Positions 1 through 60,108 of a stretch of DNA of 64,000 nt are shown piece by piece. The notes under the pieces are model-generated. The model saw only the letters and a program-made list of their open reading frames with translations. It ran no database searches and had not been told where the DNA came from. The position numbers and the translations under genes were made by a program. Position 1 is the stretch's first letter, and each line of letters opens with the position of its first letter. The stretch is from Escherichia coli (GTDB lineage Bacteria; Pseudomonadota; Gammaproteobacteria; Enterobacterales; Enterobacteriaceae): NCBI RefSeq assembly GCF_044647545.1, contig NZ_CP172818.1. One strand, 5' to 3'.

Positions 1-157
1 TCCGCTGGCATCACTACTACCGTGCGATAACGTCTTTGCCATCGAAAGCCGCTGGTATCGCGACAACCCGCTGGTGATCCGCGGGCCAGGTGCAGGGCGC
101 GATGTCACCGCCGGGGCGATTCAGTCGGATATTAACCGTCTGGCGCAGTTGTTGTAA
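1..157 (+). CDS. metL: Bifunctional aspartokinase/homoserine dehydrogenase II, C-terminal fragment (window starts inside the gene)
   Basis: Frame beginning at nt 2 translates to ...AIQSDINRLAQLL then TAA at 155-157; position immediately upstream of metF matches metBL-metF synteny. Confidence 0.8.
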   Translation, partial: PLASLLPCDNVFAIESRWYRDNPLVIRGPGAGRDVTAGAIQSDINRLAQLL

Positions 158-178
158 TTTCAGTACTCTAAAATGCCC

Positions 179-227
<49 letters not shown>

Positions 228-390
228 GCATGTATTTGAACGGCGTTTAAAATGGTTTTAAATGAAACTATAATGCGGTAACGATAGGTATTGAAACGCG
301 TGATGAAATTAAATGCTACAACGTTATACGACGAACTCAAAGGCAAGGTGATTTGACTTCCTGATCACGAAGTGTTCCGGCCCGGCAGCC

Positions 391-928
391 AAAAGGGGGG
401 AAAAAGCGGCGCGGAAAAAAAAAAAGCGGGAGGGGAAAGGGGGGATAACCGGGGAGCAAAGGCGGCGAAAGCGAAAAACAAAACGCAAACCCACAAACGG
501 AGGGGGGCGAAAGGAGAACAAAAAGAAAAGGCGAAAGAAAAAAACGCAAAACCAACGCGACGAGGAAGGCCCAACCGGCAAAAAAAAAAGCAACGACGGA
601 AAAAAAAGTGAGAAGTGGCAACAAACGGCGCGCAACGCGAAAAAACGTCAGGAACGCCCCAGGAAGGGGTGAGCGGGGCGGGGGGGAAAAACCACCACGC
701 AACAGCGCGGGAGCCGGGGGGGAGAGGCGCCACACAAACGAAGAAGAAGGGAAAAAAAAAAGGAGGGGGGAGAAAGGAAAAGGGAAAAAAGAACGACACA
801 ACGGGGGCGGGGAAACAAGAACCAAAGAGCGCCAAAACAGGAAGGACACAAGGAAAGCGCGTAAACAAGGGCGGATACAAACAAACGGAAACCACAGAGA
901 ACAGACAAGGAGGAAAAAAAAACCAATA
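391..928. repeat. T-depleted purine-rich low-complexity tract (about 8 T in ~540 nt) with several G-run clusters
   Basis: Direct count on the + strand: whole 60-nt lines with zero T (481-600, 721-840); A roughly half, G about 30 percent, C under 20 percent. Minus strand is correspondingly A-free. Confidence 0.95.
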
Positions 929-1199
929 AAGTACGTGTTGAGTTGATTTTCATTTGTTTGTTACCCAGTTGATTTTGCATATCCAGTATTCGGCCTACGC
1001 GAGGGCGCAGGCCGAATCAGATGTCTTACAACAACAATCCGGTGCGACACGTTGTTTTTCGAAGAAGCCCAGGGTCCGTGTTCAGAATAACAGCAAAAAG
1101 GGGGAGGGGATGCGGCACAAAAAAAATCTTTTATCGCCTCTAATTAAGATGAAGTTTTTTCAACTTCCCTGATTTTTCCTCACCATCATTGGTCATTTT

Positions 1200-1262
1200 T
1201 CGGTTGACGCCCCTCGGCTTTTCCTTCATCTTTACATCTGGACGTCTAAATGGATAGATGTT
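1200..1262 (+). promoter_or_regulatory. metF promoter region with tandem MetJ-box-like octamers
   Basis: ttgacg at 1204-1209; tandem 8-mers acatctgg/acgtctaa/atggatag/atgttcac around 1230-1262 resemble the AGACGTCT met-box consensus, ~45 nt upstream of the metF ATG. Confidence 0.55.
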
Positions 1263-1301
1263 CACAACACAACATATAACTACAAGCGATTGATGAGGTA
1301 A

Positions 1302-2195
<894 letters not shown>

Positions 2196-2469
2196 ATAGT
2201 GTGGCTTTTGTGAAAATCACACAGTGATCACAAATTTTAAACAGAGCACAAAATGCTGCCTCGAAATGAGGGCGGGAAAATAAGGTTGTCAGCCTTGTTT
2301 TCTCCCTCATTACTTGACGGATATGAAGCTAAAACCCTTTTTTATAAAGCATTTGTCCGAATTCGGACATAATCAAAAAAGCTTAATTACGATCAATTTG
2401 ATCTACATCTCTTTAACCAACAATATGTAAGATCTCAACTATCGCATCCGTGGATTAATTCAATTATAA

Positions 2470-4704
<2,235 letters not shown>

Positions 4705-4713
4705 TCTGACCTT

Positions 4714-4753
4714 CTTCAGCGACTGCCTTTCAGGCAGTCGCTGAAGTTTCTTT
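4714..4753 (+). terminator. Intrinsic terminator downstream of katG
   Basis: Perfect hairpin cttcagcgactgcc/ggcagtcgctgaag followed by tttcttt. Confidence 0.7.
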
Positions 4754-4797
4754 ACCGGCGTATAGTGTCCACAGGAAAACTACACACTGGATCTCTC

Positions 4798-5703
4798 ATG
4801 TCTGCCGCAGGAAAGAGCAACCCACTGGCAATCAGTGGCCTGGTTGTGCTCACACTTATCTGGAGTTATAGCTGGATTTTCATGAAGCAAGTCACCAGCT
4901 ACATCGGTGCCTTCGACTTTACCGCCTTACGCTGCATTTTCGGCGCTCTCGTTTTATTCATCGTCCTTTTATTACGTGGTCGCGGAATGCGCCCGACACC
5001 GTTTAAATACACCTTAGCCATTGCCCTGTTACAAACCTGCGGGATGGTCGGCCTGGCGCAGTGGGCGCTGGTCAGCGGAGGAGCGGGGAAGGTGGCAATC
5101 CTGAGCTATACCATGCCGTTCTGGGTGGTGATTTTCGCCGCGTTGTTTCTCGGTGAACGCCTGCGACGTGGGCAATATTTCGCGATTCTGATTGCCGCTT
5201 TCGGCTTATTTTTGGTGTTGCAGCCGTGGCAACTCGATTTCTCTTCGATGAAAAGCGCCATGCTGGCAATCCTCTCCGGTGTGAGTTGGGGGGCGAGCGC
5301 GATTGTTGCTAAACGTCTGTATGCCCGCCATCCGCGCGTGGATTTATTGTCGCTAACATCCTGGCAGATGCTGTATGCGGCGCTGGTGATGAGCGTGGTC
5401 GCTTTACTGGTGCCGCAACGTGAAATTGACTGGCAACCCACCGTGTTCTGGGCGCTGGCCTACAGTGCGATTCTGGCGACAGCGCTGGCGTGGAGCTTAT
5501 GGTTGTTTGTATTGAAAAACTTGCCTGCCAGTATTGCCAGCTTAAGCACACTGGCCGTTCCCGTTTGCGGCGTACTCTTTTCCTGGTGGCTGCTCGGTGA
5601 GAATCCGGGGGCCGTTGAAGGTAGCGGTATTGTGCTGATTGTGCTGGCACTGGCGCTGGTGAGCCGTAAGAAAAAAGAAGCTGTCAGTGTAAAAAACATC
5701 TGA
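4798..5703 (+). CDS. yijE: EamA/DMT-family inner membrane transporter
   Basis: 301 aa from internal Met ([15 protein letters not shown]...); multi-pass hydrophobic profile; synteny after katG. Confidence 0.85.
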
Positions 5704-5729
5704 ATTTTTTCTTCATGTGGGGCGATCGC

Positions 5730-6347
5730 TTATTTAACAAAATACCGATAGTGCCCCACCATCCGCCAGCTAAACAGCACGTCTTCTTCCTGCGCGCCTG
5801 CGCCAATGTTATGTATCACCAGCGGCGTACCGTCGCGGGCGAAGCCATCTGACACCACCCCAATATGTGCCAGCCCGTTATCTAATCGCCAGGAGACAAT
5901 ATCGCCCGATTGATAGTCACTGGGGTTCTTGCTGGTGGGGCGTGTTTTATCGTGGCGGGTAAACCAGGTTTCCAGATTAGGCACCCGACGGTGATCGATG
6001 TTGCTGTCCGGGCGCTTTAACTGCCATTTTTGCGGGTACGCAGCAAAATTCTTCGCCATATCTTCGTGCACCAGTTTCTGCAAATCGACCTTCTGGCTGC
6101 GCAATGCACGGATCACCACATCGGAACATACGCCGCGTTCTTGCGGGACATCACCGCCAGGATAGGTAAGCTGCACATACGCCGGATCGTAAAATAGCGT
6201 GCTGCCGATTTGCTGTCTGGCACCGTCTGCGATGGCAAGGTTGGTGTTGGCCTGGATCTGTACCACGGTTGGTGGAACGGCGGGAGATTTTAAGGAGTGG
6301 CTGGTAAATGCCGTTAGCAGGCTGACCAGCACCAGTGAAGCTTTCAT
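5730..6347 (-). CDS. yijF: Conserved periplasmic protein of unknown function (DUF1287 family)
   Basis: 205-aa ORF with N-terminal signal-peptide-like segment (MKASLVLVSLLTAFTSHS); synteny. Confidence 0.85.
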   Translation of the reverse strand: MKASLVLVSLLTAFTSHSLKSPAVPPTVVQIQANTNLAIADGARQQIGSTLFYDPAYVQLTYPGGDVPQERGVCSDVVIRALRSQKVDLQKLVHEDMAKNFAAYPQKWQLKRPDSNIDHRRVPNLETWFTRHDKTRPTSKNPSDYQSGDIVSWRLDNGLAHIGVVSDGFARDGTPLVIHNIGAGAQEEDVLFSWRMVGHYRYFVK

Positions 6348-6492
6348 CTGGTTCGTCCGTGAAAATAAGAGTCACAGATTCGACCTTCCGGGCTAACGAT
6401 TGTTCTGTAGAGAAAATGTCCAGAAGCGGATAAAAAATTCCTGAACAACGTGGGAGTTTCAGACATAACTATAAAAATCTCAACACCCCTTT

Positions 6493-6585
6493 GGGAGAGA
6501 GTCAGGGTGAGGAGGAACAGGCCAGCTCCGGGGCGAATAATCACCCTCACCCCGACCCTCTCCCTGAAAGGGCGAGGGGGAAAAA
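6493..6585. repeat. Intergenic palindromic repeat unit (long imperfect inverted repeat)
   Basis: gggagagagtcagggtgagg ... cctcaccccgaccctctccc forms a ~20-bp-arm inverted repeat; resembles a recurring enterobacterial intergenic palindrome family. Confidence 0.5.
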
Positions 6586-6657
6586 CATGCCCGCAGTGAC
6601 GAGTGAGCCACTTTGCCTGATCTCAAACTCCCGGACAAGCCGGGAGTTTGGAGTAGG

Positions 6658-26580: not shown

Positions 26581-26589
26581 GAAATTTTC

Positions 26590-28955
26590 ATCTACTAAAT
26601 TTGATCACCAACCAAAAATAGCACTTCCATATTCATTAATACCGTAAAATCAAGACCGACACGTTTACCAACAACACCAGATATTCAAAACATCAAAAAA
26701 AACATGGCAGAAGTAATTGAAAATAACCAAGGACGAAATCTCGGCACATTTAAAATGATTAATGCAATCGGATATGGGAGAATTAACATGCCATATTAAA
26801 TATTCTCGAAAAGTAGTCCGCTGCTTATCTAAAAGATCATTTCTCTTCAGAAGAAATTTTCAGCGATAACAGGAGCATGGAAGAATAATGGCAACTCCTC
26901 TCTTGAATGTAGAAGGGGACAAGACCCGTCAAGAGGTTAGCTATAACAGACAATAATATAATAATGAAAAATATTAAAGCAAAGTTTGATATTGACCAGA
27001 ACAAAATTTCGGTACCTTACAATAAACACCGTAAGCGGATATTGCCAAATCAGAGAGCGCACAATAAATGAACCGAAGAAGACTACGCAAATCATCAGAA
27101 AAATCAATTTAATCCAAAACTAATTCACCGCGATGCACCCCGTATCCAAAACATTTATCAATTCTGAAGAAAGAAGCATACTCGCGACGACCCCCAACCA
27201 AGAGGTCGGGCACGGAAGACCAGGAGAGGCGTCATAAAAGTATAAAGATAAAACACCAAATATACCAGAATATCAACGTATTAAGTGCGCTTCTAACGAA
27301 CATCTGATGCATGATATCCACAACCCCCGGACCCCGATCGAAGAGGCCCGTGAAGAGAAGAGCAAGACGACACATCCTCTTTAAGATGAAACATGCGAAG
27401 CGCGCTGTAACCCAGAAATGAATCAGTTTTGTTCGGCGAAGACTAAAAGACCGATCGGAACCGGAAATCTAAAACCTTACTCGGAATACAAGCAGTTGAT
27501 CGAAGAAAAGTATATCGATTTTATACCGAAGATGATTAAACCGCAGGCAATAATATCGGGATGAAACAAAATCCCGATCATGACACGCATCATCACCTAA
27601 CTCCCACGCACAGCCCTTCAGATATAACCACTGAGGATTATCCCCGTTCTTGAAGGTAGATCTCACGCTTCCAAACATACGGAATGTTATCGGCGGATTC
27701 ACAATATATGAAGTCATCCCGAATACCTGCCGCGCGAGGAAAACATATCACCAAGGCAAGCAATTAAGCGAAGAGCAGCCTATCAACAAAAATCGCACGA
27801 CGAATATCCATATAACCCGGATTACCTCCACGTACACAATCCAATATGGCATATCTTGGAAAGGACATAACAGTTCGCATAATCATTCACTTCAAACGCA
27901 TCTAATCCATTCATTCCCCTAAATATTTAAAAATGGATGCCGAACTTTCAACTACAGGAGCACAAGGAATAGCAACAAAAAAGGCTTGATCCGACACTAA
28001 TACCTGGCGCATCAATGAAGGTGGGAATCATCAATTCCATCGACCGTTCCTCAGTAATCCTTCAATCAAAAAGATCGTCGAAAGATACGAATGACCCCGA
28101 CTGAATTCCCCTCTCACCACTCGGAGATGGCACTTTTCCGTACACGGAATAACAGAACGCCCAACCAGTATCTGGATAGACAGCTTATCCACAAGAATAC
28201 TTAAAGACCCAAAAATAGAATTCGGGGCATTAATCCGTGCAGCAACAAAAAAACTGCAATCGATTAGCCGTATTATTACAATAACTATCGGTTTATTAAT
28301 TATGGAGGCGACAGTTAATTCCCCCGACCGAACCTAACACAGACTGGTAGGCGAAAAGAAAATTGGAGAGGAAGGATTATCGGAGATTTAACTCAGCGAC
28401 TGTTATCTCTGCGGTTATTCTGTCCCCATCGTTTTTAATAACGCATTTCGCTTTTTTCCTACACCCATTTGTCCCACTAATAGTTTTGGGCGGGGGCCTT
28501 TTATTCTCGGCAGCGATGCAGACATGAACAGAAATGATTAATGCTGATCGCCACGCTATTTAGACGCCGACCGGGCGGAGAAGCGGAGAACCGCCATTTA
28601 TTCCGGTGGGAGGAAGACCGAACAACGAACGGTATGGGCAGAAAGAACCCCCCCCACGGCCCAGGGGGTATTTTACACATCAATCGTGATCTGCCGCGCG
28701 CATGCCCCTGCAACACCTGTATTGAGATAGCTGCCGTTGATCTGGCTCGAAATATTGTCACACCTCGATTCCTTCCCCCATTAACTATTTTCACCCGAAA
28801 CTACGACCCGAAACCGTAAAACTATTCTTTAACCATTACACGTCTTCGTCAATCCCCCCCACCCACTTACTTTATCTCAACCTTTCTGCATTTTCCGGAA
28901 ACCAGGGGATTGCAGATTAACAAAATGGCTTCCATCGCCGGGATTCAAAACTTTG
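26590..28955. other. ~2.3-kb ORF-free, A-rich / G-poor block of unknown origin between argH and oxyS
   Basis: No ORF of 60 aa or more with a plausible start/RBS on either strand (only four overlapping 82-97 aa frames); sampled 100 nt at 27001-27100 counts A44 C22 G17 T17; the K-12 argH-oxyS spacer is ~60 bp from memory. Boundaries approximate. Confidence 0.85.
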
Positions 28956-28964
28956 GCAAAAAAA

Positions 28965-37338: not shown

Positions 37339-38880
<1,542 letters not shown>

Positions 38881-38958
38881 CCTTAAAGAAGCGTACTTTG
38901 AAGTGCTCACACAGATTGTCTGATAGAAAGTGAAAAGCAAGGCGTAAGCAGACGATAC

Positions 38959-39034
38959 GTCCCCTTCGTCTAGAGGCCCAGGACACCGCCCTTTCACGGC
39001 GGTAACAGGGGTTCGAATCCCCTAGGGGACGCCA
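38959..39034 (+). tRNA. gltT: tRNA-Glu (anticodon UUC) in the 16S-23S spacer
   Basis: gtccccttcgtctagaggcccaggacaccgccctttcacggcggtaacaggggttcgaatcccctaggggacgcca, 76 nt. Confidence 0.95.
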
Positions 39035-39229
39035 CTTGCTGGTTTGTGAGTGAAAGTCACCTGCCTTAATATCTCAAAACTCATCTTCGGGTGACGTTTG
39101 AGATATTTGCTCTTTAAAAATCTGGATCAAGCTGAAAATTGAAACACTGAATAGTCGAAAGATTATTCGTGAGTCTCTCAAATTTTCGCAACACGATGAT
39201 GAATCGAAAGAAACATCTTCGGGTTGTGA

Positions 39230-42134
<2,905 letters not shown>

Positions 42135-59896: not shown

Positions 59897-59922
59897 AAAA
59901 ACCCGCTTCGGCGGTTTTTTTA
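59897..59922 (+). terminator. Intrinsic terminator downstream of rpoC
   Basis: aaaaacccgcttcggcggttttttt: short GC stem with ttcg loop and U-run. Confidence 0.75.
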
Positions 59923-60108
59923 AACAAATCCAGACTTTGCTTCACGGGAAATATTAAGAAAGGCAGGGCGAAACGAGGAAGAAGCTTTTCGCCCTGGACA
60001 ACATTCCTGCTGACGGCACTACCATAAAAAAACACAACGCTTTCAACAACCTTGCGTTTTTCATCTTCCGTAGCGGCTCGGAATAAATTTACGTTGTTAC
60101 ATTCTGTT

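What the first reader, a model, noticed from the sequence alone, without database searches (positions are those of the whole stretch)
391..928. ~540-bp tract almost devoid of T (purine-rich A/G/C-only DNA)
I count about 8 T in ~540 nt on the + strand, including 60-nt lines with none, so the minus strand is essentially A-free. Such extreme single-base depletion over this length is not expected from mutation and selection in an enterobacterial chromosome and matches no repeat family I know (REP, ERIC, IS, CRISPR, Rhs). Because every stop codon contains T (A on the opposite strand), all six frames are open here by composition alone, so the K/R/G/E-rich and F/P/L/S-rich ORFs in the ORF track are artefacts. 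If real, the tract would be a long polypurine/polypyrimidine mirror-like region able to form triplex or other non-B DNA, sitting in the metL 3' flank upstream of metF.
Basis: seen in the sequence. Interest (0 to 1): 0.65.

Follow-up and report, generated by a model that had tools for sequence, protein, structure and literature searches.

The report
Garbled gene copy, a sequence artefact
The T-free stretch is a corrupted copy of the second half of an ordinary E. coli 5'-nucleotidase gene with almost every T (and many C and G) dropped, and it is one of several garbled patches in this record, so it is an error in the sequence rather than unusual DNA.

Summary
In detail: window 391-928 holds 8 T in 538 nt (P about 1e-50), which is unique in the 64 kb. 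It is not a novel element. The window is ordinary E. coli, 100% identical to ST648-type genomes in metL and from 1155 onward. Those genomes carry a hypothetical gene and a 517-aa metallophosphatase/5'-nucleotidase gene between metL and metF. The tract is colinear with the last ~900 nt of that gene but has lost 96% of its T, 51% of C, 28% of G and none of its A; 90% of the tract can be derived from the intact gene by deletions alone. It is the worst part of a garbled zone, 159-1154: a hybrid junction found in no genome, then A43, then progressively degraded gene sequence. The same one-directional spectrum (bases deleted or turned into A, A never changed) recurs in a second destroyed accessory block (26581-28958) and in small intergenic patches. 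Meanwhile 49,699 nt of core coding sequence show zero differences from the reference. Nothing like the tract exists in 5,426 complete E. coli genomes, species-representative genomes, metagenome contigs or 15 billion proteins. Verdict: an artefact of how the record was produced (uncorrected noisy draft, or computational reconstruction), not biology. Low interest.

The parts
1..158 (+). 3' end of metL (stop 155-157); intact left anchor
   Evidence: 100% identical to L005/L002/L012
159..181 (.). Hybrid junction. It has the frame of the island-less allele (TTTCAG...ATGCCCGGTA directly after the metL stop) with the core TACTCTAAAATGCCCG, which island-bearing strains carry 396 nt further in
   Evidence: The 26-mer is absent from species-representative genomes and metagenome contigs and from every locus fetched
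182..224 (.). A43 homopolymer. Together with 159-181 and 225-286 it stands in for about 1.7 kb of the intact allele (the hypothetical gene plus the first ~550 nt of the 5'-nucleotidase gene)
225..286 (+). Heavily garbled remnant of the 5'-nucleotidase gene (about L005 2510-2605)
   Evidence: Alignments
287..388 (+). Moderately degraded middle of the 5'-nucleotidase gene: 85-88% identity, differences mostly single-base deletions (L005 2606-2716)
389..927 (+). The T-poor tract: a colinear copy of the last ~900 nt of the 5'-nucleotidase gene (L005 2717-3618) with base-specific dropout (A 251->249, G 250->181, C 205->101, T 196->8)
   Evidence: z=24 for the T-stripped reference; LCS 483/539 vs 430+-4 shuffled and ~408 unrelated
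928..1154 (+). Right flank of the island, partly degraded. All 35 differences from L005 in 928-5800 lie here, including a second T-loss patch at about 1064-1125
   Evidence: The island-less and island-bearing alleles re-converge at window ~1150
1155..2195 (+). metF promoter region and metF (ATG 1305); intact right anchor
   Evidence: 100% identical to L005 from 1155 to 5800; 296-aa ORF; exact MetF protein found in about 27,000 collection blocks
26581..28958 (+). Second garbled block of the same kind: a degraded colinear copy of the accessory manD and MFS-transporter genes, flanked by remnants of the island-less argH-oxyS spacer
6464..6620 (.). Small garbled patch in the yijF-gldA spacer; every G is dropped over about 40 nt (6464-6492)
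   Evidence: (best identity to any complete genome 95%)

Best explanation
The tract is not a property of the organism's DNA. It is a corrupted rendering of the 3' half of an ordinary accessory gene (a 517-aa bifunctional metallophosphatase/5'-nucleotidase), which ST648-type E. coli carry intact between metL and metF. SHOWN: the tract is colinear with that gene. The corruption is base-specific dropout (T 96%, C 51%, G 28%, A 0% lost) plus occasional replacement by A. The garbled zone fills exactly the strain-variable segment between the metL stop and the point ~150 nt upstream of metF where the island-bearing and island-less alleles become homologous again. The same one-directional spectrum recurs in a second accessory block and in small spacer patches, while all core coding sequence is error-free. 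INFERRED: the corruption arose when the record was made. Wherever the sequence could not be anchored or corrected by conserved single-copy sequence, a very low-quality draft or decoding was left in place, with missing signal rendered as a deletion or as the default letter A (hence A43). I consider two production routes about equally likely and cannot separate them from sequence alone. (i) A noisy long-read draft that was corrected only where correction data could be placed: short reads or homologous genomes lacking the islands, and multi-copy REP/rRNA repeats. (ii) A computational reconstruction or generation of the sequence (model-decoded or edited in silico) that is faithful where E. coli genomes agree and degenerates where they differ.
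For: Identity of the tract: the T-stripped reference aligns at z=24, against z about 11-15 for the unmodified and T-substituted versions; colinear alignments; LCS 483/539 vs 430+-4 shuffled and ~408 unrelated; composition A251/G250/C205/T196 -> A249/G181/C101/T8. Host background is essentially identical to genomes with the intact gene: 1-158 is 100% identical, 1155-5800 is 100% identical to L005, and all 35 differences lie in 937-1154. All 10 loci encoding the identical MetF have the intact gene pair, and 1,841 of 5,426 complete genomes carry the gene. Non-biological spectrum: A->other 2 vs other->A 48 in block 1, 20 vs 189 in block 2, with deletions dominant. Whole-window pattern: 0 differences in 49,699 nt of CDS vs 98 in 6,059 nt of intergenic sequence, Fisher p=1.7e-95; second destroyed accessory block; G-dropout patch and REP/terminator patches. 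Hybrid junctions blending two alleles in both blocks. Absent elsewhere: no complete E. coli genome, no species-representative genome or metagenome contig, no exact ORF or homologue among 15 billion proteins. Residual errors where short reads cannot be placed are a documented property of polished long-read assemblies (Polypolish, PMC8812927, abstract). Generated genomes are reported to deviate from natural k-mer and repeat composition, with particular difficulty at repetitive elements (PMC12871140).
Against: No reads, quality values or provenance are available, so lack of read support is inferred, not shown. For route (i): 35-40% error and 96% loss of one base far exceed usual long-read consensus error, and the islands are single-copy and should be polishable with the strain's own short reads. 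For route (ii): 49.7 kb of lineage-specific coding sequence reproduced without a single error is more than free generation would be expected to give, so the process would have to be conditioned on the real sequence. Absence from databases is also what a unique real mutant would show.
Confidence: 0.92

Rival explanations
1. A specific sub-type of artefact: consensus of a mixed population. Reads from island-bearing and island-less strains are piled up together, so each island column is a near-tie between a base and a gap, and systematic per-base weighting decides which bases are dropped.
For: It would explain colinearity with deletions, boundaries that coincide with the island junctions, and junctions that blend two alleles.
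Against: A second strain abundant enough to out-vote the island columns should also leave minority alleles among core-gene SNPs, since other E. coli lineages are only 97-98% identical here. Yet there are 0 differences in 49,699 nt of CDS from the ST648-type reference. It does not explain A43, the substitutions towards A, or the G-dropout patch in a spacer.
Confidence: 0.05
2. Real DNA: a locally hypermutated pseudogene. An unknown strand-specific process would have resynthesised this segment while skipping template A, for example error-prone repair or reverse transcription under dTTP starvation, leaving a T-less plus strand.
For: The changes are confined to one locus and one strand and are colinear with the parent gene. 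The segment is dispensable: the island is absent from most E. coli.
Against: No known mutational process deletes about 190 individual T's in 900 nt while leaving every A. The same window shows a different base hierarchy in other patches (G and T lost in block 2, G only at 6464-6492), so several distinct base-specific processes would be needed, all avoiding 49.7 kb of core CDS. Flanks are 100% identical to strains with the intact gene, so there has been no time for gradual decay. A 43-nt A run would be expected to be unstable to replication slippage (general knowledge, not tested). Found in no other isolate.
Confidence: 0.03
3. Real DNA of foreign or de novo origin: a purine-rich non-B-DNA (triplex/H-DNA) element or unknown repeat inserted upstream of metF.
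For: 80% purine, with one 54-nt uninterrupted purine run at 740-793.
Against: Colinearity with the resident gene shows it is not an insertion. There is no mirror symmetry and no tandem periodicity, and 99 C's interrupt the purine strand.
Confidence: 0.005

Closest known systems
Residual-error patches in long-read bacterial assemblies after short-read or homology-based polishing
   Same: Perfect sequence over most of the replicon, with errors left in places where correcting data cannot be placed (repeats such as REP elements and rRNA operons, or regions missing from the correcting data). Errors are dominated by deletions and homopolymer miscalls (Polypolish paper, PMC8812927). Here the small patches sit in REP-like hairpins, a boxC-like repeat, the rRNA operon and a terminator.
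   Different: The severity is far greater than usual: about 40% of reference positions are lost over 900 nt, with near-total loss of one base. Two single-copy accessory islands are affected, and the junctions blend two alleles.
Degenerate output of sequence-generating or decoding models (low-complexity drift, default-symbol runs)
   Same: Fidelity tracks how conserved a segment is across E. coli. Failure starts exactly where alleles diverge (after the metL and argH stop codons) and ends where they re-converge. There are blended alleles at the junctions, self-reinforcing loss of one letter, and a run of the first-alphabet letter A. Generated genomes are reported to violate natural k-mer and repeat composition (PMC12871140).
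   Different: 49.7 kb of lineage-specific coding sequence is reproduced without error, so this would have to be reconstruction conditioned on a real genome rather than free generation. I have no provenance to test it.
Homopurine-homopyrimidine mirror repeats (H-DNA / intramolecular triplex)
   Same: Strand-asymmetric purine richness; one 54-nt pure purine run.
   Different: No mirror symmetry, and 18% C on the purine-rich strand. The composition is explained by dropout from a normal gene.
Diversity-generating retroelement (adenine-specific mutagenesis)
   Same: The change is specific to one base on one strand.
   Different: DGRs substitute at template adenines and preserve length. They need a reverse transcriptase and a template/variable repeat pair. 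Here the affected base is deleted, A is the one base that is conserved on the sense strand, and there is no RT gene and no second copy in the window.

Membership tests
Sequence-production artefact (uncorrected or mis-decoded segment) | Colinear with a genuine sequence that near-identical genomes carry at the same locus | tested here: met
   flanks 100% identical to L005
Sequence-production artefact (uncorrected or mis-decoded segment) | Error spectrum unlike mutation: directional, deletion-dominated, base-specific | tested here: met
   Retention A~100%, G 72%, C 49%, T 4%; A->other 2 vs other->A 48
Sequence-production artefact (uncorrected or mis-decoded segment) | Other patches of the same kind elsewhere in the same record, independent of gene function | tested here: met
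   Block 26581-28958; patches at 6464-6620, 17148, 22041 and 59912-59939. 0/49,699 CDS vs 98/6,059 intergenic differences
Sequence-production artefact (uncorrected or mis-decoded segment) | Not reproduced in independent isolates or assemblies | tested here: met
Sequence-production artefact (uncorrected or mis-decoded segment) | No support from raw reads or an independent method | not testable with these tools
   No reads, qualities or provenance available
H-DNA / triplex-forming homopurine-homopyrimidine mirror repeat | Long uninterrupted purine strand | tested here: not met
   The tract as a whole is 80% purine with 99 C; only 740-793 (54 nt) is uninterrupted
H-DNA / triplex-forming homopurine-homopyrimidine mirror repeat | Mirror symmetry of the purine tract | tested here: not met
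   No all-purine mirror repeat with arms >=10 nt and spacer <=8
H-DNA / triplex-forming homopurine-homopyrimidine mirror repeat | S1 or chemical sensitivity under supercoiling | not testable with these tools
   Experimental
Diversity-generating retroelement | Reverse transcriptase gene and a template/variable repeat pair nearby | tested here: not met
   The gene content of the window is fully accounted for by core E. coli genes. There is only one copy of the 5'-nucleotidase sequence in the window
Diversity-generating retroelement | Length-preserving substitutions at template adenines | tested here: not met
   Changes are deletions (902 -> 539 nt), and A is the conserved base on the sense strand
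Ordinary pseudogene decay | Scattered frameshifts, nonsense mutations or IS insertions with normal base composition, shared by related isolates | tested here: not met
   Composition is extreme, the flanks show zero divergence, and no other genome has it

The most novel reading that the evidence does not exclude
The tract is real chromosomal DNA: a segment of an accessory gene resynthesised in vivo by a polymerase or reverse transcriptase that skipped template adenines (for instance under severe dTTP limitation). This would leave a T-less strand next to a 43-nt A run and would be a previously undescribed base-skipping mutational process.
Probability: 0.03. Interest if true: 0.85.

Novelty: not a real feature. 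Interest (0 to 1): 0.07.

Why it matters
As biology it does not matter: there is no new element, no triplex-forming tract and no real ORFs. It matters as quality control. This record contains at least two destroyed accessory-gene blocks (about 3.0 kb collapsed to 1.0 kb between metL and metF; 2.8 kb degraded to 2.4 kb between argH and oxyR) and several corrupted spacers. Any gene-content, pseudogene, promoter or repeat call from its non-core regions is therefore unreliable. Other odd observations from the same window should first be checked against a near-identical reference genome. Had the tract been real, a base-skipping mutational process would have been a major surprise.

Tried and rejected
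1. A position-by-position transformation of the E. coli sequence anchored at the right junction: rejected, identity about 25%.
2. T replaced by A, G or C: these alignments are much weaker than T deleted (z about 11-15 vs 24).
3. Reverse-complement origin: no signal.
4. The window being another Escherichia species (suggested by 92.8% identity for 928-1400): rejected. The flanks are 100% identical to E. coli ST648-type genomes, and the low identity is due to errors concentrated in 937-1154.
5. Block 26581-28958 as a different natural island: rejected. It is colinear with manD/MFS (score 739 vs 3+-2 for shuffles), has no ORF over 97 aa, and occurs in no complete genome.
6. Finding the source record or a second isolate: exact 40-mer and junction 26-mer scans of species-representative genomes and metagenome contigs, exact look-up of eight tract ORFs, and a homology search with the 176-aa ORF all returned nothing. 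CP142526.1 is not in the complete-genome collection.
7. Tandem or mirror repeat structure: none apart from A43.
8. I could not identify the sequencing platform or software responsible.

Full report
OBSERVATION. Window 391-928 holds A250, G181, C99 and T8. The T-poor interval runs from 377 to 926. Given the window's 23.6% T, P(T<=8 of 538) is 2.5e-50. It is the only place in the 64 kb where any base falls to <=12 per 200 nt, and its entropy is far below the rest of the window (1.58 vs 1.99 bits). metL ends at 157 and metF starts at 1305. All six frames are open in the tract purely because stop codons need T on the plus strand or A on the minus strand.

WHAT ORGANISM AND LOCUS. A first search suggested only 92.8% identity to E. 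coli for 928-1400. That was misleading. Window 1-158 is 100% identical to several E. coli loci, 1155-5800 is 100% identical to L005 (CP142526.1), and all 35 differences in 928-5800 are packed into 937-1154. The closest complete genomes are ST648-type strains such as FDAARGOS_497. Between metL and metF these strains carry a 376-aa hypothetical gene (minus strand) and a 517-aa bifunctional metallophosphatase/5'-nucleotidase gene (plus strand; Pfam Metallophos + 5_nucleotid_C). All ten loci that encode exactly the window's MetF have this intact pair. The gene is present in 1,841 of 5,426 complete genomes, so it is an accessory island. K-12-type genomes lack it.

WHAT THE TRACT IS. Window 287-400 is about 86% identical to the middle of the 5'-nucleotidase gene, and homology resumes at the gene's stop codon at window 928. 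So the tract sits where about 900 nt of the gene's 3' half should be.
- A position-by-position comparison gave random identity.
- The reference with all T deleted aligns to the tract at z=24 over shuffles, against z about 11-15 for the unmodified and T-substituted versions and no signal for the reverse complement.
- The alignments are colinear throughout.
- The reference segment (902 nt) is A251 G250 C205 T196 and the tract (539 nt) is A249 G181 C101 T8.
- The longest common subsequence is 483 of 539, against 430+-4 for shuffled tracts and about 408 for unrelated E. coli DNA.
So about 90% of the tract is obtainable from the intact gene by deletions alone, with losses of T 96%, C 51%, G 28% and A about 0%.

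THE WIDER GARBLED ZONE (159-1154). About 3.0 kb of the intact allele (L005 841-3845) is represented by about 1.0 kb.
- 159-181 is a junction that blends two alleles. It has the frame of the island-less allele (TTGTAA TTTCAG ... ATGCCCG GTA) with the core TACTCTAAAATGCCCG, which island-bearing strains carry 396 nt further in. This junction occurs in no fetched locus, no species-representative genome and no metagenome contig.
- 182-224 is the A43 run.
- 225-286 is heavily garbled gene sequence.
- 287-388 is 85-88% identical, with single-base deletions.
- 389-927 is the T-less tract.
- 928-1154 is the partly degraded right flank, with a second T-loss patch at about 1064-1125.
The window returns to perfect identity at 1155. 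That is where the island-less and island-bearing alleles become homologous again (window ~1150). The garbled zone therefore coincides with the strain-variable segment.

THE REST OF THE WINDOW. Against FDAARGOS_497 the window aligns in three blocks. Window 26581-28958 stands in for 2,813 nt that hold the accessory manD and MFS-transporter genes.
- It is colinear with them (global score 739 vs 3+-2 for shuffles, with ordered tblastn fragments of 25-45% identity).
- It has no ORF over 97 aa, and its composition shifted from T854/G727/A637/C595 to A831/C577/T537/G433.
- No complete genome has it.
- Its ends resemble the island-less argH-oxyS spacer, in slightly garbled form.
Smaller patches also occur:
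- In the yijF-gldA spacer every G is dropped over about 40 nt; the best identity to any complete genome is 95%.
- There are a 1-nt and a 7-nt deletion in REP-like hairpins (17148, 22041) and a scrambled stretch after the rpoC terminator (59912-59939).
- There are a few differences in the rRNA operon.
In total there are 0 differences in 49,699 aligned nt of protein-coding sequence, 98 in 6,059 nt of intergenic sequence and 14 in 5,138 nt of RNA genes (Fisher p=1.7e-95).

ERROR SPECTRUM. In both large blocks, reference A is almost never altered (A->C/G/T = 0/2/0 in block 1 and 6/10/4 in block 2). C, G and T are deleted or replaced by A (other->A = 48 and 189), and inserted bases are mostly A. 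The base that suffers most differs by patch: T in 377-926 and 1064-1125, G and T in block 2, G only at 6464-6492. This looks like missing signal rendered as a gap or as a default letter, not like mutation.

IS IT ANYWHERE ELSE? No.
- No complete E. coli genome covers the tract in near or distant mode.
- A 40-mer from its most complex part is absent from 100,044 species-representative genomes and from the metagenome contigs.
- Eight ORFs from the zone are absent from a 15-billion-protein collection that includes assemblies of public sequencing runs.
- The 176-aa ORF has no homologue there.

INTERPRETATION. SHOWN: the tract is a base-dropout copy of a normal gene; it is embedded in a wider garbled zone that fills a pan-genome-variable segment; the same corruption recurs elsewhere in non-core sequence; and core coding sequence is flawless. 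INFERRED: the corruption arose when the record was produced. No known mutational process removes about 190 individual T's from 900 nt while conserving every A, changes its preferred base between patches, starts at the stop codons of core genes, and spares 49.7 kb of coding sequence in a lineage whose flanks show zero divergence from strains with the intact gene. I see two plausible production routes.
(i) A very noisy long-read draft corrected only where correcting data could be placed. Residual errors in repeats after short-read polishing are well documented (PMC8812927) and fit the REP and rRNA patches. The islands would stay uncorrected if the correcting reads or genomes lacked them, which could also explain junction bases pulled towards the island-less allele. 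Against this route: the error level is extreme.
(ii) A computational reconstruction or generation that is faithful where E. coli genomes agree and degenerates where they differ. This fits the blended alleles, the self-reinforcing loss of a letter and the default-A runs, and generated genomes are reported to deviate from natural k-mer and repeat composition (PMC12871140). Against this route: the flawless lineage-specific coding sequence implies conditioning on a real genome.
I cannot separate the two from sequence alone and weight them about equally. A mixed-strain consensus is less likely because core genes show no minority alleles.

COMPARISON WITH KNOWN THINGS. The triplex/H-DNA reading fails its defining tests: the tract is 80% purine with 99 C, has one 54-nt purine run, and has no mirror repeat. 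DGR-type adenine mutagenesis fails too: there is no RT and no template/variable pair, the changes are deletions rather than substitutions, and A is the conserved base. Ordinary pseudogene decay fails on composition, on the zero flank divergence and on uniqueness. The features of a sequence-production artefact that can be tested here are all met. Read support cannot be tested.

VERDICT. This is not a real biological feature. Interest is low, apart from the quality warning it raises for every non-core region of this record. Residual probability that the tract is real is about 3%; if it were real, it would be a remarkable base-skipping mutational process.

Noticed in passing
window 182-224: A perfect 43-nt A homopolymer directly after the hybrid junction. 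With its neighbours it replaces about 1.7 kb of the intact allele. It is by far the longest homopolymer in the window; the next longest are 9-11 nt, all inside the T-poor tract.
   Followed up: yes
window 26581-28958: A second garbled accessory block between argH and oxyR. It is a degraded colinear copy of manD and an MFS-transporter gene (A 35%, G 18%, no ORF over 97 aa), flanked by slightly garbled remnants of the island-less argH-oxyS spacer. No complete E. coli genome has it.
   Followed up: yes
window 6464-6620: In the yijF-gldA spacer every G is dropped over about 40 nt (6464-6492), followed by further small errors in a boxC/REP-like repeat. The best identity to any of 5,426 genomes is 95%, although the flanking genes are identical.
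   Followed up: partly
window 1064-1125: A second short T-loss patch downstream of the main tract, inside the otherwise nearly correct right flank of the island (for example GTCAAAACGTGCGAGGTGGATTGC becomes G-CAAAAAGGGGGAGG-GGA-TGC).
   Followed up: yes
window 59912-59939: About 28 nt immediately after the rpoC terminator hairpin are scrambled relative to the reference: mixed substitutions and deletions, and one G missing from the hairpin stem.
   Followed up: partly
window 17148 and 22041: A 1-nt (T) deletion and a 7-nt (CATTGTT) deletion, each next to or within a REP-like hairpin, in the yijO-eptC and ppc-argE spacers.
   Followed up: partly
window 38345-38360 (16S), 38945-39165 (spacers), 40399-40439, 40649, 41870 (23S): Clusters of differences from the reference rRNA operon, including two single-G insertions in 23S. 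These could be natural operon-to-operon heterogeneity or further uncorrected errors in a 7-copy repeat. I did not resolve this.
   Followed up: no
L002-L008, L011 coordinates 803-839: In island-bearing strains the 376-aa hypothetical gene (minus strand, no Pfam hit) overlaps the 3' end of metL by 37 nt. Its function is unknown and it was not examined.
   Followed up: no
L010 coordinates 1-573: One E. coli assembly (GCA_022996565.1) has a second, inverted 516-aa metallophosphatase/5'-nucleotidase paralogue where metL lies in the other loci, which suggests a rearrangement or duplication at this island.
   Followed up: no
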